Shown: positions 6,086 through 54,446 of the stretch, piece after piece
Numbering within the stretch: the first letter of the stretch is position 1
Layout: the number at the start of each line of letters is the position of its first letter
Source of the DNA: an uncultured Candidatus Saccharibacteria bacterium
Lineage (GTDB): Bacteria; Patescibacteriota; Minisyncoccia; Minisyncoccales; Staskawiczbacteraceae
Assembly (NCBI GenBank): GCA_964475855.1
Contig: CAYZAV010000001.1
Coordinates: 143,014-207,013, forward strand
Reading direction: 5' to 3'
DNA: 64,000 nt
Position numbers and translations under genes: made by a program
The notes under the pieces: generated by a model
The model's input: the letters and a program-made list of their open reading frames with translations, nothing else
Database searches by the model: none
Told to the model about the DNA's origin: nothing

Positions 6086-6093
6086 GGGTCGCA

Positions 6094-6530
6094 GTTATAA
6101 AGTTTGTAAAGTTATAAAGTTCATAAAGTCCTGTGCCATAATCTTATAAAGTTTTTATTAAGCCTGAAATCATCCGAGATATTTCCTTAGACAAAGAATT
6201 TATTTTTTCAAATTCTTCTCTTGAAACATAATTTAAGTCTACTGCAGTATATGACATTGATCTTACCTCTGAACAAGAACCTTTGGCAATATACAAAAAT
6301 CTAATAAACTCTTTATTTCCCATTCTTTCGAATCCTTCTGCGATATTATTACCAACACTAACTGTTGCCCTTTTGATTTGGTCACAAAAACTAAAATCTC
6401 TGTTATTTTTAAATAACGCATATATTAGTACTGCCAATTGCCTGCTTTTTTGCCAAGCAACAATATCTTCAAATTTTTCGAATTTCATTTTAGAACTTTA
6501 TAACTTTACAAACTTTATGAACTTTATAAC
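6094..6530. mobile_element. IR-bounded cassette B carrying a four-helix-bundle gene
   Basis: Flanks 6094-6130 and 6493-6530 are built from the same 8-11-nt units (GTTATAAAGTT, TGTAAAGTT, ATAAAGTT, CATAAAGT) in inverted orientation with permuted order. The cassette occupies the whole mutM-holA spacer. Confidence 0.6.
6144..6488 (-). CDS. Four-helix-bundle protein (23S rRNA intervening-sequence protein family)
   Basis: FEDIVAWQKS...NNIAEGFER...KGSCSEV matches the family pattern. Confidence 0.85.
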   Translation of the reverse strand: MKFEKFEDIVAWQKSRQLAVLIYALFKNNRDFSFCDQIKRATVSVGNNIAEGFERMGNKEFIRFLYIAKGSCSEVRSMSYTAVDLNYVSREEFEKINSLSKEISRMISGLIKTL

Positions 6531-7405
6531 TATAGCACCTGACATTTCGGGCAATAGAATGCGCTTCGGGCGGCGATTACTTTGCGCACAATAATCGCTT
6601 TACACCGGGAACAATTCTTGCCTTCCATTTGATATGCTTTTTTATGACCTTCGAAATTGCCCTTATTACCATCAACATCACGGTAATCAGAAAAGCTGTC
6701 TCCACCAAAATCTATGCCAGCGTTGAGTACTTTTTTAATATATTTATAGAGCAACTGTAATTCTTGCCTACTTAAATTTTCTGCCCGCTTTTCAGGGTGG
6801 AGACGCGCCCACCATAGCGCCTCGCTGGCATAAATATTACCAATGCCGGCAATCACAAATGGATCCATTATGACTTGCTTTATCTTTCCGCGTTTTTTGG
6901 AAACAATAGCCGCAAACTTTTCAAACGTGAAATTATTTTCCAGCGGTTCAGGCCCTATTTTCTTAAATTCCGGCGACACCAACAGTTCGTCCGTTTTCCA
7001 TAATTCAACCTTGGCAAATTTGCGCATATCAGAAAGCGCAATCATGTCGCCATTATCCAAAAAGAATATTATGTGCAAAAATCCATTTATCCGTTCGCGC
7101 AACGGGCCTTCGTCAGCCGACACCCATGTTCCATGCTTCATGTTCCATGTTCCATGAAGAAAGTGTCCCGTCATTTTCATATGCACTAACAAAGAATATC
7201 CGTCTGACAATTCAAATATGACATTTTTCGCCCGACGCCAAACGCGGATAATTTTCTTGCCCTTCAATTCTTTTTTAAACTGCGTAAACGGCCGCGGCCG
7301 TTTCACCATCTTTTCCCAATCGCACCACACATCAACAAAGGCCCGGTTAAGGACCTTTGCTTGTAACCCATTGACGGTGGTTTGTACTTCAGGTAGTTCC
7401 GGCAT
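6530..7405 (-). CDS. mutM: Formamidopyrimidine-DNA glycosylase
   Basis: MPELPEV N-terminus (catalytic Pro2) and a C-terminal zinc finger CSRC...CPKC. The track start at 7513 adds 36 spurious residues. Confidence 0.9.
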   Translation of the reverse strand: MPELPEVQTTVNGLQAKVLNRAFVDVWCDWEKMVKRPRPFTQFKKELKGKKIIRVWRRAKNVIFELSDGYSLLVHMKMTGHFLHGTWNMKHGTWVSADEGPLRERINGFLHIIFFLDNGDMIALSDMRKFAKVELWKTDELLVSPEFKKIGPEPLENNFTFEKFAAIVSKKRGKIKQVIMDPFVIAGIGNIYASEALWWARLHPEKRAENLSRQELQLLYKYIKKVLNAGIDFGGDSFSDYRDVDGNKGNFEGHKKAYQMEGKNCSRCKAIIVRKVIAARSAFYCPKCQVL

Positions 7406-17505: not shown

Positions 17506-17569
17506 AGCGTCTAGCGGATAGCGTCTAGGGTCTAGTAAAAACTAAACCCTAAACCCTGAACGCTAAACC
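17506..17569 (+). repeat. Oligo-repeat hairpin (GCGTCTAG / CTAAACC units)
   Basis: 17521-17535 pairs with the 17548-17569 region at about 12/15 positions. Confidence 0.45.
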
Positions 17570-17578
17570 TTAACTATA

Positions 17579-17825: not shown

Positions 17826-20090
17826 ATGAATAAAAAAATTAGCAACTGGTTCAAAAAATACTTAACAAGAGTCACAAAGCCCTTCCGGCAAAAAAACGGT
17901 TGGCAGATTGCCTGGATGTTTGCCAAAGGCCTGGCCTTCGTATTACTATTTTTTTGCATCATCTTATTGTGCCTCTTTTTCTATTATACCTATGACCTAC
18001 CCCGGCCCGAAAAATTCAGTGAAAACCCACTCATCCAATCAACTAAAATTTATGACCGGACGGGCAAAGTACTGTTATATGATATTTATGGCGAGGAAAA
18101 ACGCGAAGTGGTGCCATTTGAGCAAATTTCTGACAACCTAAAAAAATCGATCCTGGCCTCTGAAGATTCCCGATTCTACCAACATGGCGGCATTGATTTA
18201 CGGGGAATTTTACGGGCAATTTTAATTGATTTAAAGCTCCGATCAAAAAGCCAAGGAGGATCCACTATCACTCAACAGTTAATCCGTTCCGTGTACTTGA
18301 CTAACCAGCGCAGTATTTCCCGGAAAGTAAAAGAAGTGGTTTTGAGTATTGAAATGGAACGGCGCTATTCCAAAGACCAAATTTTTGACTGGTATTTAAA
18401 CCAGGTGCCGTTTGGTCAAAATGCATATGGAGCAGAAGCCGCGGCCCAAACCTATTTCAATAAACCAGCTTCAGATTTGTCAGTTGCACAAGCCGCTACA
18501 TTGACTGCGCTTTTGCCGGCGCCAAGCTACTACTCACCCTATGGTTCACATCGCGACCAGCTTTTACAGCGCAAAGATTATATTTTAACCAGAATGGAGC
18601 AGCTTGGGTTTATTGACCAAGCCCAAAGAGAAGCGGCGCAGCAAGAACAAATCAATTTTTCAGACAATATCACACCCATCAAAGCTCCGCATTTTGTAAT
18701 GTATATAAAGCAATACCTGGAAGAAAAATACGGCCAAGATGAGTTAAAAGAAAAGGGATTAAAAGTGTACACAACACTTGATTGGGATCTGCAAGAATAT
18801 GCCGAAGGAGTTATCCGTGAGGCTGACAAAACTAATGTGCAGTTTAATGCCAATAACACCGCCATGGTGGTTATTGACCCGAAAACGGGAGAAATATTAT
18901 CATTAATCGGATCTAAAGATTATTTTGAAAAGTCTTATCCTAAGGGTTGTGATACCAAGGCTTCGGGCAGTTGTTTATTTGATCCAAAATATGATGTTGC
19001 CACGATTGGAAAACGCCAACCAGGATCTTCATTTAAACCTTTTGTGTATGCTACAGCTTTTGAAAAAGGATATACCCCTTCAACGATATTATGGGACGTG
19101 AACACTGAATTTAATGCGAGCTGCAGTCCGGACGCCAACCAAGTGCGCAGTGAAAATGGTTCATTGTGTTATAACCCTCAAGATTACGACGGCCTATATC
19201 GGGGTAAAGTTTCTATCCGGTCGGCCTTGGCACAATCCTTAAACATCCCTGCTGTTGAAACATTATATTTAGTGGGACTAAAAGACAGCCTAAAAACCGC
19301 CCAAGATCTTGGCATTACCACCTTAAACGAACCTGACCGCTACGGGTTAAGCTTGGTATTAGGGGGAGGTGAAGTCACTCTACTTGAAATGACATCAGCT
19401 TATGGAGTATTTGCCGCTGAGGGCCAGCGCATACCACCTGTCAGTATCTTAAAAATTGAAGATAATAGTGGAGTTATTATTGAAGAAAATAAAAAAGAAT
19501 CCTCTAAGGTAATAGATACCCAGGTTGCCCGGCAAATTAACAGTGTATTGTCCGACAATAGCGCTCGCGCACCTATTTTTGGGGTAAACAACGCCCTACA
19601 TTTTAACAATTACGAAGTGGCCGCCAAGACTGGAACCACCCAGTACTATAACGACGCTTGGACTATGGGCTATAGCCCTTTTGCTGTAGTGGGAGTTTGG
19701 GTGGGAAACAATAATAACGCCTCAACTAATAAACGAACAGGTATCGGTTTAGCTGCTCCTATATGGCGCAAGGTAATGGAAAAACTACTCACTACCCACG
19801 AAAAAGAATATTTCACCGCGCCTAGCCCAATAACTAGTGGTAATCCGGTACTTTTGGGACAATTCCCGGAAAACGATCCACCCCATAGTATTTTGCACTA
19901 CATCAATAAAAGTAACCCAAATGGGCCTGCCCCGGAAAACCCCGGCAAAGACCCTATGTACGCTTTTTGGGAAAAGGCCATACAAAACTGGCTGGGAGTA
20001 CAACCACCGCCCCCAATTGACCCTAATGCCCCACCAAGCGACCTAAACAACCCCACCCCCATTATCCCTCTGCCTCCCATATTGCCATAA
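17826..20090 (+). CDS. Class A penicillin-binding protein (transglycosylase + transpeptidase)
   Basis: EDSRFYQHGGID, GGSTITQQL, SSFKP, KTGT, and a proline-rich C-terminal tail. Confidence 0.9.
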   Translation: MNKKISNWFKKYLTRVTKPFRQKNGWQIAWMFAKGLAFVLLFFCIILLCLFFYYTYDLPRPEKFSENPLIQSTKIYDRTGKVLLYDIYGEEKREVVPFEQISDNLKKSILASEDSRFYQHGGIDLRGILRAILIDLKLRSKSQGGSTITQQLIRSVYLTNQRSISRKVKEVVLSIEMERRYSKDQIFDWYLNQVPFGQNAYGAEAAAQTYFNKPASDLSVAQAATLTALLPAPSYYSPYGSHRDQLLQRKDYILTRMEQLGFIDQAQREAAQQEQINFSDNITPIKAPHFVMYIKQYLEEKYGQDELKEKGLKVYTTLDWDLQEYAEGVIREADKTNVQFNANNTAMVVIDPKTGEILSLIGSKDYFEKSYPKGCDTKASGSCLFDPKYDVATIGKRQPGSSFKPFVYATAFEKGYTPSTILWDVNTEFNASCSPDANQVRSENGSLCYNPQDYDGLYRGKVSIRSALAQSLNIPAVETLYLVGLKDSLKTAQDLGITTLNEPDRYGLSLVLGGGEVTLLEMTSAYGVFAAEGQRIPPVSILKIEDNSGVIIEENKKESSKVIDTQVARQINSVLSDNSARAPIFGVNNALHFNNYEVAAKTGTTQYYNDAWTMGYSPFAVVGVWVGNNNNASTNKRTGIGLAAPIWRKVMEKLLTTHEKEYFTAPSPITSGNPVLLGQFPENDPPHSILHYINKSNPNGPAPENPGKDPMYAFWEKAIQNWLGVQPPPPIDPNAPPSDLNNPTPIIPLPPILP

Positions 20091-29236: not shown

Positions 29237-29714
29237 AATTTGAAATTTACAATTTGAAATTTGAATTCAATTTGAAATGGTTAAATATTAAATTTAAAAA
29301 TTAGTTTTTTGTTGAGTAAGCAATTTTACCGAATATTAGTATGAATTCTTTTGACTCTTGCCAGAGATTTCTGCAGTCTTCCTTTATTTTACCATTATCT
29401 ATAGATTCTCCTAGTAACTCCAACCAATACAGAGTTTCCTTGGATTCTTTCTTGCAGATAAATATTTTATTCTGAAAGTCTTTTCTGCTTGATGCGCCAT
29501 TTGCTTCCCGGTAATTCGCCCCGATACTGGTGCCTGAACGTATTAACTGATTGATTAAAGGTATGGTAGTGATGCTTTTTGGACATAGGTTGCAAAAAGT
29601 AATTAACTTGCGGGAAAAATCCAAGGTTCTTTTTTCTAAGTCGTAAGCTTTTTCAAATTCAGCCATTTGCTTTTTTCAAATTGAATTCAAATTTCAAATT
29701 GTAAATTTCAAATT
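29237..29714. mobile_element. IR-bounded cassette C: perfect 41-bp arms around a four-helix-bundle gene
   Basis: 29237-29277 is the exact reverse complement of 29674-29714. It sits between the start of 28560..29231 and the stop of 29714..30121. Confidence 0.85.
29301..29666 (-). CDS. Four-helix-bundle protein (23S rRNA intervening-sequence protein family)
   Basis: LIRSGTSIGANYREA...KESKETLYWLELL. Confidence 0.8.
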   Translation of the reverse strand: MAEFEKAYDLEKRTLDFSRKLITFCNLCPKSITTIPLINQLIRSGTSIGANYREANGASSRKDFQNKIFICKKESKETLYWLELLGESIDNGKIKEDCRNLWQESKEFILIFGKIAYSTKN

Positions 29715-30121
29715 TACTTGCGTGTCTCTACCTTAGTTTTAACATCTTTTAGCGCACTGTGCTGCATTTTCATGGACGTTTTGGCTGTTTCTAGTACGGC
29801 AATCGGTTCGGGTTTTTTATGGACTTTAAACGGATAGGGCACTTCTTTCTTTTTCCAGGTATAGGTTTTTGACTTGGTGGCAAACCCGATAAAATTCATC
29901 AAGACGGTAGTAACCGACATGTTGTTGAGTTTTATAAACGCCACTACAAACGTTATTAGCGCGGTAAACCCGGCAAGGACAATGGCAAACAGCAGGCGCA
30001 GGAGCAGGAAATATCCAAGGCACAAAAATCCGCCAATAACCACCATCCAAAATTGCTTGAATGTCAAAAAAGCAATAATTTTCCCCTCTTCTTCTATAAA
30101 TTGTGGTGTTGGATACTGCAT
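29714..30121 (-). CDS. PrgI-family (VirB3-like) membrane protein
   Basis: MQYPTPQFIEEEGKIIAFLTFKQF followed by two TM helices, the typical PrgI layout. Confidence 0.6.
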   Translation of the reverse strand: MQYPTPQFIEEEGKIIAFLTFKQFWMVVIGGFLCLGYFLLLRLLFAIVLAGFTALITFVVAFIKLNNMSVTTVLMNFIGFATKSKTYTWKKKEVPYPFKVHKKPEPIAVLETAKTSMKMQHSALKDVKTKVETRK

Positions 30122-33416: not shown

Positions 33417-33542
33417 TTAGTATTCTAATGCTTTAAGTAGCTCATTAAAATCAGCTTTAGTAGCTTTGGTGTCTAATTTTCCTTCTATATTACGGAATTT
33501 CTCATCCAAATATTGGATAAGCTCAGAAAAATCTTCTTTCAT
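33417..33542 (-). CDS. 41-aa ORF translationally coupled to rsmA
   Basis: ATGA overlap with the rsmA TGA stop. Product MKEDFSELIQYLDEKFRNIEGKLDTKATKADFNELLKALEY, with a terminator directly downstream. Too short for the ORF track. Confidence 0.45.
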   Translation of the reverse strand: MKEDFSELIQYLDEKFRNIEGKLDTKATKADFNELLKALEY

Positions 33543-34378
33543 AGATTTACTATAATCTCGCCGTAACTGCTTGTCAAATTTTTCCAATCCTGCAGGCTAA
33601 GCGTTTCTGCACGGCGTTTGGCATCAATATTATTTTTCAAAAGCCAAGCACTAATAGCTTCTTTATCTTTTTTAAGGGCTTTAGAGAGGTTTCCTGCTAA
33701 TTGCTTGCGCGGTGCTGAAAAACCGGCTTTAACTAGAGTGAAGAATATTTCAGGGTCAATTGTCGATTTTTCCTTGTGCGGGGTGATGGAAATAATAGCC
33801 GAGTCCACGTTGGGTGCCGGCCAGAAGCAATTTTTGGAAACGTAGGAAATAACTTTGGGAGTGGCGTAAAACTGTACCGAAAGGGCCAGAATACTCATGT
33901 CTGGCGGCTTGGCGCAAATACGCTTTGCCACTTCTTTTTGAACCATCAACACCATAATAGTTGGTTGGTGTTTTTCCTCCAGAAATTTTCTGATGATGGG
34001 CGAGGTGATATAGTACGGGATGTTGGCGACTAACTTATAATTTGAAATTTGAAATTTGAAATTTGAAATTTCGAGCGCGTTGCCCTGGACGACTTCTACA
34101 TTGTTAAAGCCTGCTAGTGTTTCTTGTAAAATTTCTACCATGGCGCGGTCTTTTTCTATGGCAATGACATTGCCCGCCTTTTCTGCCAATGCCCTGGTAA
34201 GAGTGCCAATGCCCGGACCAATTTCTAAAACTGTATCCTGGCTGGAAAGCTCTGCCGCCGCAATAATTTTTTCTAAAATCCGTCCGTCAATCAAAAAATT
34301 CTGGCCAAGCCGTTTGGATGGCGCGGCAGCATGTTTTGCTAATAATTCCTTGATTACCGAGGGGGAGATAATGTCCAT
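33539..34378 (-). CDS. rsmA: 16S rRNA (adenine1518/1519-N6)-dimethyltransferase
   Basis: LGQNFLID, EIGPGIGTLT, ANIPYYITSPI. Confidence 0.9.
   Translation of the reverse strand: MDIISPSVIKELLAKHAAAPSKRLGQNFLIDGRILEKIIAAAELSSQDTVLEIGPGIGTLTRALAEKAGNVIAIEKDRAMVEILQETLAGFNNVEVVQGNALEISNFKFQISNYKLVANIPYYITSPIIRKFLEEKHQPTIMVLMVQKEVAKRICAKPPDMSILALSVQFYATPKVISYVSKNCFWPAPNVDSAIISITPHKEKSTIDPEIFFTLVKAGFSAPRKQLAGNLSKALKKDKEAISAWLLKNNIDAKRRAETLSLQDWKNLTSSYGEIIVNL
34039..34074. repeat. Tandem AATTTGAA octamers (4.5 units) inside the rsmA coding sequence
   Basis: Encodes the in-frame NFKFQISN of ...EISNFKFQISNYKLVANIPY. It uses the same 12-mer AATTTGAAATTT that occurs twice in the cassette C arm. Confidence 0.8.
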
Positions 34379-38521: not shown

Positions 38522-38526
38522 ACTAC

Positions 38527-38595
38527 TAGTAATCAGTAACAGGTAATCAGTAATTAGTAAATTCTTTTTACCAGTTACTCGCTACCAGTTACTTT
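38527..38595. repeat. Oligo-repeat hairpin (CAGTAAC / GGTAA units) filling the pnp to downstream-gene spacer
   Basis: AGTAACAGGTAATCAGTAA pairs imperfectly with TTACCAGTTACTCGCTACCAGTTACT. Confidence 0.4.
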
Positions 38596-40722: not shown

Positions 40723-40822
40723 AGCGATCCGAATAACCCGAATCTTCATCCGAATAACCCGAATAATCCTGCCGCCCAGCGGATTCGGAACATTCGGATG
40801 CTATCCGTAAATTAGGATCGCT
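40723..40822. repeat. Cargo-less hairpin with the same termini as cassette A
   Basis: Starts AGCGATCC and ends GGATCGCT. The reverse complement of the right arm is AGCGATCCTAATTTACGgatagCATCCGAATG, against cassette A AGCGATCCTAATTTACGaattaCATCCGAATG. Confidence 0.7.
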
Positions 40823-41331: not shown

Positions 41332-41429
41332 ATAGTTTTTAGTTGATAGTTATTAGTTTTGGTTTTGCAGTTTCTAGTTTTAACTGTTAACAAAGTAACT
41401 AAAACTAATTACCAATAACTATTAACTAT
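41332..41429. repeat. Oligo-repeat hairpin, TAGTT family
   Basis: The left half TAGTTTTTAGTTGATAGTTATTAGTTTTGGTTTTG is inverted in the right half. The same sequence family occurs at 53139-53240. Confidence 0.55.
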
Positions 41430-41692
41430 TTTTTCAGGCCGATCTTTTTAATGACATCCTTGTAGCGTGCTTCGTCTTCCTTCATTAAATAGGCCAATAA
41501 TTTCTTCCTTTTTACTACCATGCGCAATAGTCCGCGCTTAGAGTGCAAATCTTTTGGGTGGTCTTTTAAATGCAAAATCAGGGCATCCATTTCTTCTGAA
41601 AGCAGCCCAATTTGCACATCGGCAGAACCGGTGTCTTTTTCGTTAATGGCGTGCGCTTTGACAATCTTTACCTTCTTCTCTTTTTTTAACAT
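41426..41692 (-). CDS. rpsO: 30S ribosomal protein S15
   Basis: TGSADVQIGLLSEEMDALILHLKDHPKDLHSKRGLL. Confidence 0.9.
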   Translation of the reverse strand: MLKKEKKVKIVKAHAINEKDTGSADVQIGLLSEEMDALILHLKDHPKDLHSKRGLLRMVVKRKKLLAYLMKEDEARYKDVIKKIGLKK

Positions 41693-42604: not shown

Positions 42605-44059
42605 ATGGTCATTCCCAAAGAAGTTAAAATTATACTGGAAAAACTGAAAAGCGCAGGCTTTGAGGCCTACATCGTCGGCGGATGCGTGCGCGATTTTTTA
42701 TTGGGGCACGAACCAAAAGACTGGGATGTGACCACTAATGCCAAGCCTGAAGAAATTCAAAAGGTGTTTCCCGACAGTTTTTACGAGAATACGTTTTTAA
42801 CGGTGACGGTCAAGATGCCTGGAATGGAGGTAGAAGTAACTACTTATCGATCTGAAGCCAAATATTCTGACAAGCGCCATCCGGATGCGGTGGAATACGC
42901 GAAGACGTTGGAGGAGGATTTAAGCCGGCGGGATTTTACCGTCAATGCAATGGCGATAGATCATGAAGCATGGAACATGAAACATGGAACAGGGGTGATC
43001 GACCCGTTTGGTGGCCAAGAGGATTTAAAGAAAAAAATTATCAGGACGGTGGGAAATGCCAATGATCGTTTTGGGGAAGATGCGTTGCGTATGTTGCGGG
43101 CGGTGCGGTTTGCGGCAGTGCTTGATTTTACGATAGAAGAAAAAACGGCTGAAGCGATAAAAAAGAACAGCCTGTGGATTGATGCCGTTTCAAAGGAGCG
43201 CATCAGGGATGAGTTTGTGAAAATGGTTATGTCGCTCAGGGCAGCTGACGGTGTTGAGTTGCTGCGGGAATTTGGTTTGCTGAAAATTATTATCCCGGAA
43301 TTACAAGAAAATGTAGGGGTAGGACAAAATAAGCATCATATTTATGATTGCTATGAGCATGCCTTAAAGGCGCTGGAGTATACGGCTAAGAAAAAATTTA
43401 GCTTGCACGTGCGTCTGGCCGCCTTGTTACACGACGTTGGAAAGCCGCGGGTGAAAATGGGAGAAGGCAAAGAATCAACGTTTTATAACCACGAAATGAT
43501 TGGGGCTCGCCTGGCCTTCCAAATTTTGCAGCGCCTGAAATTTTCCAATAATGATGTTAATGCGGTGGTCAATTTGGTGCGCCACCATATGTTTTACTAT
43601 AATGTGGATGAAGTGACGGAATCTTCCGTGCGCCGGCTGGTTAAAAAAGTGGGCCCTGAAAATATGGAGGCGCTTTTACAGGTGCGTGAAGCGGATCGGA
43701 TTGGCAGTGGTGTGCCAAAGGCAGAGCCCTATAAGCTGCGCCACTTAAAATATATCATTGAAAAAGTTTCCAAGGACCCGATTTCGGTCAAAATGTTAGC
43801 GATAGATGGCAAAGACGTGATGGATGTGCTGGGTATTGCGCCAGGGCCAAAGATAGGACAAATTTTGGACGCGCTATTAGGACATGTGCTTGATGATCCA
43901 TCTAAAAACACCGCCGAATTTTTGAAGAGTGAAATTAAGGTTCTGGGCGCGCTTAGTGAAAAAGAATTACAAAGCCTGGCCGAAAAAAGCAAGGAAGATA
44001 CATTTGGCGCACAGTCAGTTGAAGACGAAAAAGTGAAAAGCAAGTATTGGGTGAAGTAA
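42605..44059 (+). CDS. cca: CCA-adding enzyme (tRNA nucleotidyltransferase with HD domain)
   Basis: VGGCVRDFLLG...DWDVTT, RRDFTVNA, and an HD region LLHDVGKP. Confidence 0.85.
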   Translation: MVIPKEVKIILEKLKSAGFEAYIVGGCVRDFLLGHEPKDWDVTTNAKPEEIQKVFPDSFYENTFLTVTVKMPGMEVEVTTYRSEAKYSDKRHPDAVEYAKTLEEDLSRRDFTVNAMAIDHEAWNMKHGTGVIDPFGGQEDLKKKIIRTVGNANDRFGEDALRMLRAVRFAAVLDFTIEEKTAEAIKKNSLWIDAVSKERIRDEFVKMVMSLRAADGVELLREFGLLKIIIPELQENVGVGQNKHHIYDCYEHALKALEYTAKKKFSLHVRLAALLHDVGKPRVKMGEGKESTFYNHEMIGARLAFQILQRLKFSNNDVNAVVNLVRHHMFYYNVDEVTESSVRRLVKKVGPENMEALLQVREADRIGSGVPKAEPYKLRHLKYIIEKVSKDPISVKMLAIDGKDVMDVLGIAPGPKIGQILDALLGHVLDDPSKNTAEFLKSEIKVLGALSEKELQSLAEKSKEDTFGAQSVEDEKVKSKYWVK

Positions 44060-46409: not shown

Positions 46410-47429
46410 ATGGCACAAGAACAAACATACTATATTAAGGGAATGCATTGTGCCGCTTGCGAAATCCTGATTGAAAAGAAGCTCTTGGAAATTCCAGGTG
46501 TTAAAGCTGTTGATGCCTCAATTGTGGATGGAAAGGCTGTTGTCGAATACGAAGGTGAAAAACCTGCTTTAGGTTTCTTGAATAACATTTTCAGGAAAGA
46601 TAATTATTCCTTTTCAGAAAGCCAAAGTTTTGTTGCTGAAAATACTAATACTTCGGGAAACTCAATGTTGCTTGGTTTGGCTATAGCAGTAATCATTATT
46701 GCGGTATTTTTAGGATTAGAAAGAATGGGAATATCTGGATTTTTTAACATAAGCTCTAGTTCCTCGTTATTCTCATTCTTTGGTTTTGGGATATTGGCTG
46801 GTTTTTCCAGTTGTGCTGCATTAGTGGGTGGTATTGTATTATCTATGGCAAAGCAATGGAGTGAACTGTATTCAGCAGAAGACTCTTCTGTTAAAAAGCT
46901 ACAACCACATATTTTATTTAATACAGGACGCATTTTATCTTATGCAATACTTGGTGGAGTTTTAGGGTTAATTGGTAGTAGGTTGTCGTTATCTTTCACG
47001 GTAACAGCCTGGCTCATTATTGTTATTTCCCTGTTAATGATTACGCTTGCCCTTCAAATGTTAGACATGAAAGCATTCAGAAAATTCCAAATTAGGTTGC
47101 CCAAAAGCATTACCCAAGGAATTGCCAATGAAAAGAAATTTAAAGGCAGATATATGCCATTTATGATGGGAGCGGCCACTTTCTTTTTACCTTGTGGCTT
47201 TACCATTACCGCCCAAACCATTGCCTTGCTATCGGCTAATACAATCCAGGGAGCTTTGATTATGGGACTTTTTGCCTTGGGGACAGCTCCCGTACTCTTG
47301 CTTATTGGCATATCCAGCGTAAAATTTCTTTCAAAGCCGCACTTAGCATTAACTTTTTCAAAAGTAGCAGGGTTTTTGGTATTATTTTTCGCTATATATA
47401 ATATTTATAATCAAATACAATTATTATGA
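46410..47429 (+). CDS. HMA-domain protein fused to a polytopic membrane domain (DsbD_2/TauE-like)
   Basis: N-terminal GMHCAACE metal-binding motif, with membrane Cys motifs SSCAALVGG and FFLPCGFT. Confidence 0.55.
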   Translation: MAQEQTYYIKGMHCAACEILIEKKLLEIPGVKAVDASIVDGKAVVEYEGEKPALGFLNNIFRKDNYSFSESQSFVAENTNTSGNSMLLGLAIAVIIIAVFLGLERMGISGFFNISSSSSLFSFFGFGILAGFSSCAALVGGIVLSMAKQWSELYSAEDSSVKKLQPHILFNTGRILSYAILGGVLGLIGSRLSLSFTVTAWLIIVISLLMITLALQMLDMKAFRKFQIRLPKSITQGIANEKKFKGRYMPFMMGAATFFLPCGFTITAQTIALLSANTIQGALIMGLFALGTAPVLLLIGISSVKFLSKPHLALTFSKVAGFLVLFFAIYNIYNQIQLL

Positions 47430-47842
47430 ACCAGAAAATTATTCAATATGGGTCAGTCGCAGTTATTATCGTTGCTGTTTTGATTTCAGGATATATCATG
47501 TTAAATCCGAAATCCGAAGCACGAAATCCGAATACGAGTGGTTTGGCTCCAATAGTTGATGGAAAACAAGAAGTTAAAATGACTGTGCTCGCCGTAGACT
47601 ACTCCCCTCGCACTTTTAAGGTAAAAGCAGGCGTGCCAGTAAAATGGGAAATCACTTCCTCGGGTCAAGCTGGATGTGCCAGCGGAGCCGTATATATCAA
47701 TGGCTTAGTAGAAAGTCCCATTTACTTAAATCCAGAGCAGGGACAAGTTAAAGTGGTAGAATTTACGCCGCAAACACCAGGAACATATAAATTTAATTGC
47801 AGTATGAATATGGCGCGCGGAACTATAGAAGTTATTAACTAA
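47426..47842 (+). CDS. Membrane-anchored cupredoxin-like protein
   Basis: N-terminal TM segment, GCASG, and C-terminal FNCSMNMARG ligand-like motifs. Confidence 0.55.
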   Translation: MNQKIIQYGSVAVIIVAVLISGYIMLNPKSEARNPNTSGLAPIVDGKQEVKMTVLAVDYSPRTFKVKAGVPVKWEITSSGQAGCASGAVYINGLVESPIYLNPEQGQVKVVEFTPQTPGTYKFNCSMNMARGTIEVIN

Positions 47843-53138: not shown

Positions 53139-53240
53139 ATAGTTTATAGTTATTAGTTCATAGTTTTAGTTAACTAGTTACTAGTTAGCAAAACTAATGA
53201 CTAAAAAACCAAAACTAATAACTAAAAACTAAAGACTAAT
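53139..53240. repeat. Oligo-repeat hairpin, TAGTT family, abutting the nusA ATG
   Basis: The reverse complement of the right half contains TAGTTTTTAGTTATTAGTTTTGGTTTT, near-identical to 41335-41367. Confidence 0.55.
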
Positions 53241-54446
53241 ATGGACATAAAAAACTTCCAGCGTGCGCTGGCGCAAATTGCTGAAACTCGGGGCATTTCG
53301 CCTGAAGCCATCATTGAAACTATTGAGGCGGCTTTGGCAACGGCTTACAAAAAGGACTATGGGCAGAAGGGGCAGAAAATAAAAGCCAAATTTAACCAGG
53401 TATCGGGTGATGCCCAGTTTTGGCAACTGAAATTGGTGGTGGATGAAAGTATGCTGTATACGGAAGAGGAAATTGAAGAAATGAAGGCCCAGAAATTGGT
53501 ACCGGCTGAAGATTTTGGTGTGGCGCGCGAAGGAGAAGAGCCGATTAAAAAAGTGGTCTTTAATGCTGAAAAGCATATCATGCTGGCCGATGCCAAGAAA
53601 GAAAATAAGGGTATTGCTGTGGGCGAAGAGCTGGAAATCCCCTTGGTATCAAAGCAAGATTACGGCCGGATTGCCGCCCAAACTGCTAAACAGGTTATTT
53701 TACAGAAAATCCGTGAAGCGGAAAAAGATGTCATTGCCTCCGAATATCGAAGCAAGGAAGGGGAAATCATCTCCGGCGTGGTACAGCGCATGGAGGGAAG
53801 CGTGGTACTGGTGGATATTGGCAAGACGCTAGGTATTTTAAACCGCGAAGAACAAATTCCCGGCGAATATTACAAGCAAGCCCAACGCCTAAAATTTTAT
53901 ATTCTAAAAGTGGAAGAAACGCCAAGGGGAAGCGTGGTGGTTTTGAGTCGCGCCTATCCAAAACTGGTTTCGCGGTTGTTTGAATTAGAGGTTCCTGAAA
54001 TTGCTTCGGGGGTGGTGGAAATTAAATCCATTGCGCGTGAAGCAGGGTATCGCACCAAAATAGCTGTGGCTTCAACAGAAGATCGGATTGACCCGATTGG
54101 CAGTTGTGTGGGCCAGCGGGGCAGTCGCATTATGGCGGTGATTAATGAATTGGGCGGAGAAAAAATTGATGTTATCGGCTGGAGCGATGACCCGCAAAAA
54201 TTTATTGCCAATGCATTGAGCCCGGCTAAAGTGTCCAGGGTGCATATTGGTGAAAAAAATTCAGCCGCGGTTGATGTGGGCGAAGACCAGTTGAGTCTCG
54301 CTATTGGCAAGGAGGGCAGGAATGTGAGGCTGGCAAGTAATTTGACAGGCTGGAAGATTGATATCAAGCCGGTTGCGGCACCAAAGGAAACAAAAGCGGC
54401 AGAAGATGCAGAAGTTACAAAGGACGCACCAAAAGAAGAAAAATAG
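53241..54446 (+). CDS. nusA: Transcription termination/antitermination factor NusA
   Basis: N-terminal domain, S1 and two KH domains (GSCVGQRGSRI, AIGKEGRNVRLA). Confidence 0.9.
   Translation: MDIKNFQRALAQIAETRGISPEAIIETIEAALATAYKKDYGQKGQKIKAKFNQVSGDAQFWQLKLVVDESMLYTEEEIEEMKAQKLVPAEDFGVAREGEEPIKKVVFNAEKHIMLADAKKENKGIAVGEELEIPLVSKQDYGRIAAQTAKQVILQKIREAEKDVIASEYRSKEGEIISGVVQRMEGSVVLVDIGKTLGILNREEQIPGEYYKQAQRLKFYILKVEETPRGSVVVLSRAYPKLVSRLFELEVPEIASGVVEIKSIAREAGYRTKIAVASTEDRIDPIGSCVGQRGSRIMAVINELGGEKIDVIGWSDDPQKFIANALSPAKVSRVHIGEKNSAAVDVGEDQLSLAIGKEGRNVRLASNLTGWKIDIKPVAAPKETKAAEDAEVTKDAPKEEK

What the first reader, a model, noticed from the sequence alone, without database searches (positions are those of the whole stretch)
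7127..7149. The same 23-nt motif, in the same reading frame (W-N-M-K-H-G-T), is embedded in two unrelated housekeeping enzymes (mutM and cca)
- The reverse complement of 7127-7149 is CATGGAACATGAAGCATGGAACA. cca carries CATGGAACATGAAACATGGAACA at 42969-42991, a 22/23 match.
- Both are read as WNMKHGT: ...LHGTWNMKHGTWVSA... in Fpg and ...DHEAWNMKHGTGVID... in the CCA-adding enzyme.
- My back-of-envelope expectation for a match of at least 22/23 anywhere in 64 kb (both strands, uniform composition) is about 0.004. The internal CATGGAA/CATGAA repetition inflates that figure somewhat.
- In Fpg the segment follows the HMKMTG strand, where orthologs vary in length.
- Inference: these are in-frame footprints (single arms) of an oligo-repeat element of the kind that flanks the cassettes, tolerated in surface loops.
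Basis: partly seen in the sequence, partly recalled or inferred. Interest (0 to 1): 0.55.

Follow-up and report, generated by a model that had tools for sequence, protein, structure and literature searches.

The report
Translated seven-base tandem repeat in enzymes
The shared 23-base motif is a tandem repeat of the seven-base unit CATGGAA that sits in frame inside two housekeeping genes of a candidate-phyla-radiation bacterium. It is one case of a wider, little-described habit of these genomes of carrying such repeats inside conserved enzymes.

Summary
Window 7127-7149 (minus strand, fpg) and 42969-42991 (cca) match at 22 of 23 bases, and shuffled sequence gave no such match.

Both sites are period-7 tandem arrays of CATGGAA, with CATGAAR variant units. 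Because 7 and 3 share no factor, every frame of a pure array gives the same cyclic peptide HGTWNME. The unit has no stop codon on either strand. "Same reading frame" is therefore mostly automatic.

- **cca:** the array is a 7-residue (21-nt) insertion. The nearest orthologue and solved structures lack it. It lies in a low-confidence loop that is a hot spot for heptamer arrays and palindromes across related bacteria.
- **fpg:** this is not a recent insertion. Every orthologue examined has a heptamer array at this site. Each lineage has its own unit (GAACATG, GAATATG, GAATCTG and others), which indicates concerted evolution. The model folds it as a confident beta-hairpin.

The window is rich in period-7 arrays (16 against 1.6 expected), including a third in-frame array in rsmA.

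Best explanation: coding heptanucleotide microsatellites, maintained by slippage and filtered by selection.

Elsewhere (CATGGAA)n arrays do form hairpin arms and flank PF05635 cassettes, but mobility is unproven.

The parts
7124..7156 (-). (CATGGAA)n heptanucleotide array in fpg, 4.7 units: CATGGAA CATGGAA CATGAAG CATGGAA CATGG. It encodes H84-W94 (HGTWNMKHGTW).
   Evidence: period 7, 84% matches; lag-7 identity 0.66; predicted beta-hairpin, strands 87-90 and 93-96, with high pLDDT.
6530..7405 (-). fpg/mutM coding sequence (291 aa, start MPELPEV)
   Evidence: PF01149, PF06831, PF06827; matches solved Fpg structures, E about 1e-45.
42962..42993 (+). (CATGRAA)n heptanucleotide array in cca: CATGAAG CATGGAA CATGAAA CATGGAA CAGG. 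It encodes H120-G130 (HEAWNMKHGTG).
   Evidence: period 7 and 14; net +7 aa against the nearest orthologue and solved structures; pLDDT below 50 at residues 124-129.
42605..44059 (+). cca coding sequence (CCA-adding enzyme with HD domain, 484 aa)
   Evidence: PF01743, PF12627, PF01966, PF13735.
34039..34071 (-). Third in-frame heptamer array of the same kind: a perfect (AAATTTC)4.7 in rsmA/ksgA, encoding ISNFKFQISNY just before the ANIPYY motif. The unit equals that of the cassette arms at 29237 and 29686.
   Evidence: 100% matches; PF00398. KsgA genes in L092 and L115 carry (TTCCATG)n in the same loop.
6093..6531 (-). PF05635 (23S rRNA IVS protein, Avd-like four-helix-bundle) gene cassette bracketed by inverted tandem oligo arrays, inserted between fpg and holA.
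   Evidence: E=9e-35; arm duplex -37 kcal/mol. Orthologous loci L202, L204 and L206 lack it, while L207 and L208 have it.
29237..29715 (-). Second PF05635 cassette, bracketed by inverted (AATTTGA)n arrays
   Evidence: E=3e-14; arm duplex -41.6 kcal/mol.

Best explanation
The two 23-mers are two separate in-frame heptanucleotide microsatellites built from the same unit, CATGGAA (equivalently GAACATG), in a Staskawiczbacteria-like (CPR/Patescibacteria) genome that is generally rich in 7-nt tandem arrays.

**Shown**
- Both sites are period-7 arrays.
- The unit is stop-free on both strands.
- Because 7 and 3 are coprime, all frames of a pure array give the cyclic peptide H-G-T-W-N-M-E.
- The cca array is a net 21-nt (3-unit, 7-residue) gain in a flexible loop that repeatedly acquires heptamer arrays and palindromes in related bacteria.
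- The fpg array occupies a 14-residue (42 nt, 6-unit) extension that canonical Fpg lacks. It is present in all orthologues examined and keeps the invariant core TG|GAA, which supplies the conserved Trp (TGG) and Gly (GGA). The remaining unit positions change together within a lineage.

**Inferred**
- Arrays arise from local proto-repeats. G-x-W codons place GG at 7-nt spacing, and the native cca site reads GCC ATG GCC ATG GAT GAA AAG.
- They are kept homogeneous by slipped-strand mispairing or unequal exchange in 7-nt steps.
- Selection passes only stop-free units, net length changes that are multiples of 3 nt, and positions in permissive surface elements.
- The fpg/cca identity then reflects both arrays being in the same, commonly reached unit state. 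Ectopic conversion from other CATGGAA arrays in the genome may help.
For: **Array nature and background**
- establish the arrays.
- 16 period-7 TRF rows in the window against 1.6 in simulated sequence.
- period 7 dominates in 954 kb and 393 kb of mostly CPR DNA (538 and 121 rows), with 212 and 66 distinct units.

**cca**
- +7 aa against the 86%-identical P0122 and against solved CCA enzymes.
- the loop is 22-57 aa long in 80 metagenomic orthologues. Of 32 long loops, 19 have best autocorrelation at lag 7, with different units.
- the native site is rich in CATGG, ATGGA and ATGAA.

**fpg**
- all 120 orthologues have the same length with G-x-W-x4-G-x-W.
- all nine orthologues show lag-7 periodicity (0.54-0.69), with units GAACATG, GAATATG, GAATCTG (4 near-perfect copies), GAAATTG and others.
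- the array is 31/33 nt identical to a 63%-identical orthologue, but only 18/33 to the closest orthologue.
- unit class is scattered over the protein tree (22 Fitch changes for 30 taxa).
- unit identity is 0.77 within a species against 0.67 between species. Codons fed by the same unit position co-vary (permutation p<=0.003).
- 11-14 extra residues against solved Fpg. P0049 lacks 14 aa.

**Selection filter**
- in-gene CATGGAA arrays are all 3-5 units and are read 23:8 as hydrophilic HGTWNME rather than FHVPCSM. Long arrays occur only outside genes.
- The window's intergenic units carry stops by direct reading (AATTTGA, TAGTTAT, CTAAACC, AGCGTCT).

**Literature**
- Heptanucleotide repeats are the most abundant long simple-sequence-repeat class in many prokaryotes, attributed to polymerase slippage (Mrazek 2007, as summarised in PMC4679880 and PMC4692102).
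Against: - Slippage of single 7-nt units shifts the frame, so in-gene turnover needs 3-unit steps or compensated events. No polymorphic alleles were seen.
- cca insert sizes in relatives are not quantised in 7-residue steps.
- The same unit recurs at many unrelated loci within particular genomes (up to about 10 arrays in a single genome, the bin CAIPMZ01). Many intergenic copies share a conserved flank (CAAAA, 24 of 125) and an inverted partner array. This points to copying or selection on the sequence itself rather than purely local birth.
- The cca CATGRAA insertion appears in at least 4 separate places in the cca tree.
In viral contigs it is not.
- The co-variation statistics do not correct for shared ancestry.
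Confidence: 0.6

Rival explanations
1. The arrays are solo arms (or decayed copies) of a dispersed hairpin element built from two inverted heptamer arrays. That element sometimes carries a PF05635 (Avd-like) gene in its loop, spreads within CPR genomes and occasionally lands in frame in permissive loops, as Rickettsia palindromic elements do.
For: -: 23 of 44 gene-start-proximal (CATGGAA)n arrays in other genomes have an inverted partner array 3' of them.
- these form hairpins of about -30 kcal/mol, and the CATGGAA-strand RNA is the more stable one in 15 of 17 (G.U wobbles).
- a shared CAAAA flank and spacer.
- PF05635 cassettes are flanked by CATGGAA-type arrays in L048 and L098.
- the window's own cassettes have inverted tandem-array arms, and one arm unit (AATTTGA) recurs in frame in rsmA.
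- cca of L118, L119 and L175 has a two-arm in-frame version. Shorter forms (P0139, P0180, window) look like right-side truncations.
- patchy distribution in the cca tree.
- hits cluster in particular genomes, including those whose cca carries the array (MHPA01, JAHFKW01).
Against: - Neither window array has a partner arm or folds unusually well (cca z=-0.7).
- Only 2-3 of 31 in-gene arrays elsewhere have partners.
- Units differ from locus to locus in the window and between cassettes and nearby in-gene arrays (L146, L159), unlike a copy-and-paste family.
- No transposase, target-site duplication or empty/filled pair with clean boundaries was found. The cca site is a replacement, not a clean insertion.
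- The fpg array is ancestral to the clade and changes unit in place.
Confidence: 0.25
2. Ectopic gene conversion or template switching within this genome copied the array of one gene (or of a third CATGGAA array) onto the other. The two sites are then identical by recent descent.
For: - 22 of 23 identity, including the CATGAAR variant unit next to CATGGAA units.
- Both native sites offer microhomology (CATGG/TGGAA).
- The array in fpg is decoupled from the gene's phylogeny.
Against: - The fpg sequence is fully accounted for by orthologues from other genomes that carry almost the same 33 nt (P0004 and P0099, 31/33).
- cca orthologues in other genomes carry the same unit with the same K variant.
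- The order of units differs between the two genes.
- Identity ends at the array edges, apart from GGGTG, which is native flank in both genes.
Confidence: 0.1
3. The peptide WNMKHGT is selected at the protein level in both enzymes (a convergent functional motif), and the DNA similarity is a by-product.
For: In fpg the two Trp and two Gly residues are invariant or nearly so, and the segment is predicted as a confident beta-hairpin.
Against: - In cca the segment is absent from the nearest relatives and from solved enzymes, and it is predicted disordered.
- Synonymous codons are shared (GGA, ACA, CAT), and the DNA is 7-nt periodic, which a peptide constraint does not require.
- The same DNA array occurs in many unrelated genes, on both strands and in intergenic DNA.
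Confidence: 0.03

Closest known systems
Long simple sequence repeats of 5-11 nt in prokaryotes, in which heptanucleotides predominate (Mrazek et al. 2007, as summarised in PMC4679880 and PMC4692102)
   Same: Head-to-tail 7-nt units, strong genome-wide excess of period 7, many different units per genome, and a proposed origin by polymerase slippage.
   Different: Those repeats are described as mainly intergenic and under-represented in coding regions. Here short arrays sit in frame in conserved housekeeping enzymes, recur at the same loops across species, and in fpg persist across a whole clade with concerted unit changes. I found no paper describing such repeats in CPR bacteria.
TAACTGA direct repeats of Beggiatoaceae, cyanobacteria and Bacteroidetes (MacGregor 2015, PMC4679880)
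   Same: A single heptamer family is dispersed at many loci per genome and across phyla, mostly a few nucleotides upstream of start codons. It is occasionally translated when in the stop-free orientation. The CATGGAA arrays in other genomes show the same start-codon proximity.
   Different: The unit differs. TAACTGA has stops in all forward frames, so it cannot sit inside genes in that orientation. CATGGAA is stop-free on both strands. The two window copies are internal to genes, not upstream.
GGGAATC / GGGGA(T/C)T repeats of Xanthomonas and Nostoc (PMC4692102), and cyanobacterial STRR heptamers
   Same: Heptamer families with a preference for about four units, located within 50 bp of gene ends, sometimes as inverted pairs.
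   Different: Those are G-rich, G-quadruplex-forming and under-represented in coding DNA. CATGGAA has no G-tracts, and its intergenic copies pair with an inverted array to form hairpins.
Rickettsia palindromic elements (RPE) inserted in frame in protein genes (from my own knowledge, Ogata et al. 2000)
   Same: Repeat DNA that is tolerated in frame in housekeeping proteins and adds a surface peptide segment.
   Different: RPEs are 100-150 bp palindromic elements of fixed sequence. The window arrays are 30-33 nt, are tandem rather than palindromic, and have no partner arm. Some cca orthologues, with two inverted arms or perfect palindromes, come closer.
23S rRNA intervening sequences carrying a PF05635 ORF between inverted terminal repeats (Pfam PF05635; homology to DGR Avd noted in PMC10053308)
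   Same: The window's cassettes (6093-6531 and 29237-29715) have exactly this architecture: an ORF bracketed by arms that pair at about -37 to -42 kcal/mol.
   Different: The cassettes lie between protein genes, not in rRNA, and their arms are tandem oligo arrays. The fpg and cca arrays themselves have neither an ORF nor a second arm.

Membership tests
Simple sequence repeat / microsatellite (long SSR, 5-11 nt unit) | Head-to-tail copies of a short unit, longer than chance allows | tested here: met
   period 7, 4.7 and 3.3-4.3 copies; no shuffle reaches the observed matches; 16 period-7 arrays in the window against 1.6 expected.
Simple sequence repeat / microsatellite (long SSR, 5-11 nt unit) | Array turnover by gain or loss of units, giving concerted evolution or length polymorphism | tested here: inconclusive
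   Concerted unit changes between species are seen in fpg. No within-population length variants were available: the seven contigs carrying P0001 encode the identical protein.
Contingency locus (phase-variable SSR) | Unit length not a multiple of 3, with copy number varying so that the gene switches in and out of frame; usually surface or restriction genes | tested here: not met
   The unit is 7 nt. However, all 120 fpg orthologues keep one length and frame, cca stays in frame in every orthologue, and both are housekeeping enzymes.
TAACTGA-type start-codon-proximal heptamer repeats | Unit TAACTGA | tested here: not met
   The unit is CATGGAA.
TAACTGA-type start-codon-proximal heptamer repeats | Arrays lie within a few nucleotides upstream of start codons | tested here: not met
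   Both window arrays are more than 80 codons inside their genes. The feature is met by 44 of 125 CATGGAA arrays in other genomes, where the last ATG often serves as the start codon.
Cyanobacterial STRR | Specific heptamer units (CCCCAGT, TTGGTCA, CAACAGT; recalled from memory) in heterocystous cyanobacteria | tested here: not met
   The unit differs, and the organism is Staskawiczbacteria-like (source names).
Rickettsia palindromic elements / in-frame palindromic repeats | In-frame residence in protein genes | tested here: met
   insertion status for cca.
Rickettsia palindromic elements / in-frame palindromic repeats | Palindromic (hairpin-forming) element of about 100-150 bp with a family consensus | tested here: not met
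   The arrays are 30-33 nt. Folding z-scores are -2.45 (fpg, partly flank pairing) and -0.7 (cca). No partner arm lies within 130 nt.
REP/REPIN/MITE-type mobile repeats | Terminal inverted repeats or a hairpin, target-site duplication, and a cognate transposase (RAYT or IS) | tested here: inconclusive
   The window copies have no inverted partner and no duplication. A transposase was not searched for genome-wide, since only 64 kb was available.
IVS-like PF05635 cassette | PF05635 ORF bracketed by inverted repeats that can pair | tested here: not met
   This holds for 6093-6531 and 29237-29715, but not for the fpg and cca arrays, which have no ORF and no second arm.
DGR variable region | Reverse transcriptase plus template/variable repeat pair with adenine-specific differences | not tested
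   I did not search for a reverse transcriptase. The two copies differ at one G/A position only and are tandem arrays, which does not resemble a template/variable repeat pair.

The most novel reading that the evidence does not exclude
CPR genomes may harbour a previously undescribed family of hairpin elements made of two inverted heptamer arrays. These act at the RNA level (G.U-wobble asymmetry), sometimes carry an Avd-like PF05635 gene in the loop, and are generated or moved by a dedicated mechanism. That mechanism would also write tandem heptamers in frame into essential genes, so that enzymes such as Fpg, CCA-adding enzyme, KsgA, TsaD, TatD, NrdG and PriA repeatedly gain element-derived peptides. 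At least one of these (the Fpg hairpin) would have been kept as structure.
Probability: 0.2. Interest if true: 0.75.

Novelty: new variant of a known kind. Interest (0 to 1): 0.5.

Why it matters
- **A non-triplet microsatellite inside essential enzymes.** It can live there for long evolutionary times, be translated, and even become a conserved structural element (the Fpg beta-hairpin), while still evolving in concert at the DNA level. This is an unusually clean natural example of DNA-level repeat dynamics shaping protein sequence.
- **Alignment and phylogeny.** Identical peptides in unrelated proteins, and phylogenetically scattered "motifs", can be repeat artefacts rather than homology or convergence.
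- **Testable leads in ultra-small bacteria.** It points to hot-spot loops in cca, ksgA and other genes. It also points to an association between heptamer-array hairpins, start codons and Avd-like cassettes.

Tried and rejected
- My first home-made period scan was faulty. I replaced it with TRF plus simulated sequences.
- **Chance** is rejected.
- **Assembly artefact** is rejected. The identical Fpg protein is encoded on seven contigs from NCBI, ENA and Logan assemblies. Orthologues from unrelated samples carry the same array.
- **"fpg segment is a recent insertion"** is rejected by the orthologue alignment.
- **"The HGTW class of fpg is one clade"** is rejected by the tree test.
- **Local birth from the proto-unit CATGGAT at the cca site** is plausible but unproven. 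The observed units are CATGGAA/CATGAAA, not CATGGAT.
- **Rfam** finds only two tRNAs in the window.
- **Literature** searches found no description of heptamer repeats in CPR bacteria and no link between PF05635 genes and tandem repeats.
- **Viral-contig scans** intended to judge whether CATGGAA is special gave 3 hits against 2 and 4 for composition-matched controls, which is uninformative for bacteria.
- **Unit sharing between PF05635 cassette arms and nearby in-gene arrays** holds in the window (AATTTGA) but not in L146 or L159. It is weak evidence.
Full report
**1. The observation**

The minus strand of 7124-7156 reads CATGGAA CATGGAA CATGAAG CATGGAA CATGG inside an ORF whose product is a 291-residue Fpg/MutM. 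Window 42962-42993 reads CATGAAG CATGGAA CATGAAA CATGGAA CAGG inside a 484-residue CCA-adding enzyme. No dinucleotide-preserving shuffle of the window gave a match even with three mismatches. Tandem Repeats Finder reports both sites as period-7 arrays.

**2. Why "same frame" is largely automatic**

Seven and three are coprime, so three units (21 nt) restore the frame. Each of the three frames of a pure (CATGGAA)n array reads the same cyclic peptide H-G-T-W-N-M-E. The opposite strand reads F-H-V-P-C-S-M. None of the 14 cyclic triplets is a stop codon.

The variant unit CATGAAR creates a TGA in one frame, so two of three frames remain open. Sharing a frame therefore adds a factor of about two, not an independent coincidence.

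By contrast, several of the window's intergenic heptamer units contain stops on at least one strand by direct reading: AATTTGA, TAGTTAT, CTAAACC and AGCGTCT. This is a simple filter on which units can survive inside genes.

**3. The genome and its repeat background**

Source names on the homologues place the window in Candidatus Staskawiczbacteria (Parcubacteria, CPR/Patescibacteria) or close to it.

- The window has 16 period-7 TRF rows against 1.6 in Markov-simulated sequence. Other periods are near expectation or only modestly raised.
- Most arrays are intergenic. Many are inverted pairs forming hairpins (38525-38595, 40729-40810, 41332-41430, 53139-53241).
- Two pairs bracket small genes that Pfam identifies as PF05635 "23S rRNA intervening sequence protein" (6144-6488, E=9e-35; 29301-29666, E=3e-14). 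Their arms pair at -37 and -42 kcal/mol.
- A third in-frame array, a perfect (AAATTTC)4.7, lies in rsmA/ksgA at 34039-34071. It encodes ISNFKFQISNY just before the ANIPYY motif, and its unit equals that of the cassette arms 5 kb away.

**4. cca: a real, lineage-specific insertion in a hot-spot loop**

Among 120 orthologues of 68-87% identity, about 70 have a six-residue loop (MDxxKK) between RRDFTxNAxA and (I/V)DPFGG. The 86%-identical P0122 has MGLDKK where the window has IDHEAWNMKHGTG. Against solved CCA-adding enzymes (6ibp, 1miv) the window protein has exactly seven extra residues, which is 21 nt or three units. An AlphaFold model puts pLDDT below 50 on residues 124-129 (NMKHGT), indicating a flexible loop.

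The same array type occurs in five other orthologues (P0132, P0139, P0154, P0180, P0198). These are scattered among base-state neighbours in a tree built without the loop, so it was gained or lost at least four times. Three orthologues (L118, L119, L175) carry a second, roughly inverted array, (TTTCAAG)n, and L118 folds into an imperfect hairpin of -22 kcal/mol.

In 80 further metagenomic orthologues the loop ranges from 22 to 57 residues. Of 32 long loops, 19 have their best DNA autocorrelation at lag 7, with units that differ between species. Several others are near-perfect palindromes, down to -50.6 kcal/mol.

The native site reads GCC ATG GCC ATG GAT GAA AAG AAA. This is rich in CATGG, ATGGA and ATGAA and could seed this unit.

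**5. fpg: an old array that evolves in concert**

All 120 orthologues (62-76% identity) have the same length here and the pattern G-x-W-x4-G-x-W, so it is not a recent insertion. Relative to solved Fpg proteins the clade has 11-14 extra residues exactly at this point. One orthologue (P0049) lacks 14 residues, which is 42 nt or six units.

The DNA of nine orthologues is 7-nt periodic in every case (lag-7 identity 0.54-0.69), but with lineage-specific units:

| Orthologue | Units |
|---|---|
| Window, P0004, P0099 | GAACATG |
| P0114 | GAATATG |
| P0026 | GAATCTG x4, nearly perfect |
| P0064 | GAAATTG |
| P0083, P0003 | A-rich units |

The constant part of the unit, TG|GAA, supplies Trp (TGG) and Gly (GGA). 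The peptides of the main classes are the translations of the unit variants. (TGGAAAA)3 gives WKMENGK, close to the commonest orthologue type, VG[K/N]WKLEN.KW, differing at M/L. (TGGAACA)3 gives WNMEHGT. (TGGAATA)3 gives WNMEYGI.

Several results show that the array's state is decoupled from the gene's history:

- The window array is 31/33 nt identical to that of a 63%-identical orthologue, but only 18/33 to the closest orthologue.
- The HGTW-type class (30 of 120) needs 22 changes on the protein tree, close to random labelling (mean 26.6).
- Units are more alike within a species (0.77) than between species at the same unit index (0.67).
- Codons fed by the same unit position co-vary (permutation p<=0.003, not corrected for ancestry).

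This is the signature of concerted evolution of a tandem array. The model (mean pLDDT 90.6) makes residues 87-96 a two-stranded beta-hairpin, so here the repeat-encoded peptide is structured.

**6. The unit elsewhere**

I estimate about four would be expected for random uniform sequence. Forty-four of the 117 record titles name CPR lineages and 22 more are unnamed bins. The rest include Gammaproteobacteria MAGs, Bacteroidota, a Thiomargarita and a cyanobacterium. Hits cluster in particular genomes, with up to about ten arrays in one bin. Those genomes include two whose cca carries the array (MHPA01, JAHFKW01).

Of the 125 arrays:

- 31 are internal to long ORFs. All are 3-5 units, and 23 are read as HGTWNME against 8 as FHVPCSM.
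- 44 abut the 5' end of an ORF, 31 of them in the TTCCATG orientation. The last ATG often serves as the start codon, for example in adenylate kinase.
- 15 lie at 3' ends and 32 are otherwise intergenic. A further three lie at locus edges and could not be classified.

Internal arrays recur at the same site in orthologous genes of different genomes: NrdG-like activase, TatD, TsaD, PriA, KsgA.

Gene-proximal intergenic arrays are usually the left arm of a hairpin, (CATGGAA)n-CAAAA-spacer-(TTCTATG/TTATGTG)n. Twenty-three of the 44 have such a partner, against 2-3 of 31 internal arrays and neither window array. The CATGGAA-strand RNA is the more stable in 15 of 17 because of G.U wobbles. PF05635 genes in other loci are likewise bracketed by inverted oligo arrays, and in L048 and L098 by CATGGAA-type arrays.

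DNA around these hits and around the cca genes is generally dominated by period-7 arrays of very many units. In unselected CPR DNA, CATGGAA is not among the commonest units. In viral contigs it is no commoner than composition-matched controls.

**7. Interpretation**

The best-supported reading is that both sites are coding heptanucleotide microsatellites.

- The period-7 excess matches the known predominance of heptanucleotide long simple sequence repeats in many prokaryotes, attributed to polymerase slippage (summarised in PMC4679880 and PMC4692102).
- Selection then explains what is seen inside genes: stop-free units, short arrays, net lengths divisible by three, the hydrophilic strand, and permissive loops.
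- Homogenisation explains why fpg arrays keep their periodicity over deep divergence and switch unit as a block.
- With only two freely variable positions in the fpg unit, the GAACATG state is reached often (about a quarter of orthologues). Its coincidence with a cca array of the same unit is therefore not extraordinary.

What this reading does not explain well is the within-genome multiplicity of one unit, the conserved flank and partner arm of intergenic copies, and the repeated appearance of the same array at the cca site. A related possibility is that ectopic conversion from other arrays seeds new sites. Protein-level convergence and chance are effectively excluded.

**8. Comparison with known systems**

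The closest known kinds are:

- long simple sequence repeats generally;
- the TAACTGA family of Beggiatoaceae, cyanobacteria and Bacteroidetes, which shows the same start-codon proximity and dispersed single unit;
- the G-rich heptamers of Xanthomonas and Nostoc;
- cyanobacterial STRR.

For in-frame residence the nearest parallel is Rickettsia palindromic elements, but the window arrays are neither palindromic nor of that size. The cassettes match the architecture of 23S rRNA intervening sequences with a PF05635 ORF.

I found no report of heptamer arrays in CPR bacteria. I also found none of a translated heptamer array conserved and concertedly evolving in a core enzyme. I therefore rate this as a new variant of a known kind.

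**9. Limits**

- Only 64 kb of the source genome was available.
- No population variants were accessible.
- Trees are neighbour-joining on single proteins.
- The co-variation tests ignore shared ancestry.
- ORF-based classification of arrays stands in for gene calls.
- The specialness of CATGGAA among heptamers in bacteria could not be controlled.

Noticed in passing
window 34039-34071 (-), in rsmA/ksgA 33539-34378: A perfect (AAATTTC)4.7 array lies in frame, encoding ISNFKFQISNY just before the ANIPYY motif. Its unit is the same as the arms of the PF05635 cassette at 29237/29686. KsgA genes of L092 and L115 carry (TTCCATG)n in the same loop.
   Followed up: partly
window 6093-6531 and 29237-29715: Two PF05635 (23S rRNA IVS protein / Avd-like) genes are each bracketed by inverted tandem oligo arrays that pair at -37 and -42 kcal/mol. 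The first is an insertion between fpg and holA: it is absent in L202, L204 and L206 and present in L207, L208 and L218. Eight of nine PF05635 ORFs seen in all loci have such arms.
   Followed up: partly
window 26411-26441/26698-26740, 38525-38595, 40729-40810, 41332-41430, 53139-53241: Intergenic hairpins are built from two inverted arrays of 7-9-nt units, each locus with its own unit. One lies downstream of rpsO (S15) and another upstream of nusA. They may be terminators or processing sites. The first pair encloses about 250 bp of unknown content.
   Followed up: no
window 47503-47532, in ORF 47426-47842: An (AAATCCG)n array of about 4 units lies near the N-terminus (residues 26-36, after a hydrophobic helix) of a 138-residue protein. 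It is possibly a fourth translated heptamer array.
   Followed up: no
window 17506-17573: Two adjacent arrays with unrelated units, (AGCGTCT)n then (CTAAACC)n, lie upstream of the 754-residue ORF at 17826. They are not complementary to each other.
   Followed up: no
L094, L099, L061, L040, L079, L065, L112 and others (species-representative genomes): (TTCCATG)n arrays abut start codons, so that the ATG of the last unit is the start codon (adenylate kinase, an epimerase, IspF, ribosomal protein L6, pilin-like genes). No Shine-Dalgarno-like sequence lies between. This resembles the TAACTGA repeats of Beggiatoaceae.
   Followed up: partly
L021, L041, L045, L056, L062, L069, L087, L088, L111, L114 and others: A composite hairpin, (CATGGAA)n-CAAAA-spacer-(TTCTATG/TTATGTG)n, recurs. 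G.U wobbles make the CATGGAA-strand RNA more stable in 15 of 17 loci, which hints at an RNA-level role and a defined functional strand.
   Followed up: partly
L185, L157, L168, L171, L194 (cca loop): In-frame near-perfect palindromic insertions (down to -50.6 kcal/mol) occupy the same cca loop that takes heptamer arrays in other species. These are closer to Rickettsia-type palindromic elements.
   Followed up: no
L004/L110, L024/L077, L083/L101, L001/L069, L092/L115: The CATGGAA array occupies the same site in orthologous genes of different genomes: NrdG-like radical-SAM activase, TatD, TsaD, PriA (reverse orientation) and KsgA. Whether these are old arrays like the one in fpg or repeated gains was not examined.
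   Followed up: no
L204 1383-1464: A GC-rich palindromic hairpin (-39 kcal/mol) lies between fpg and holA, at the position where the window has the PF05635 cassette.
   Followed up: no
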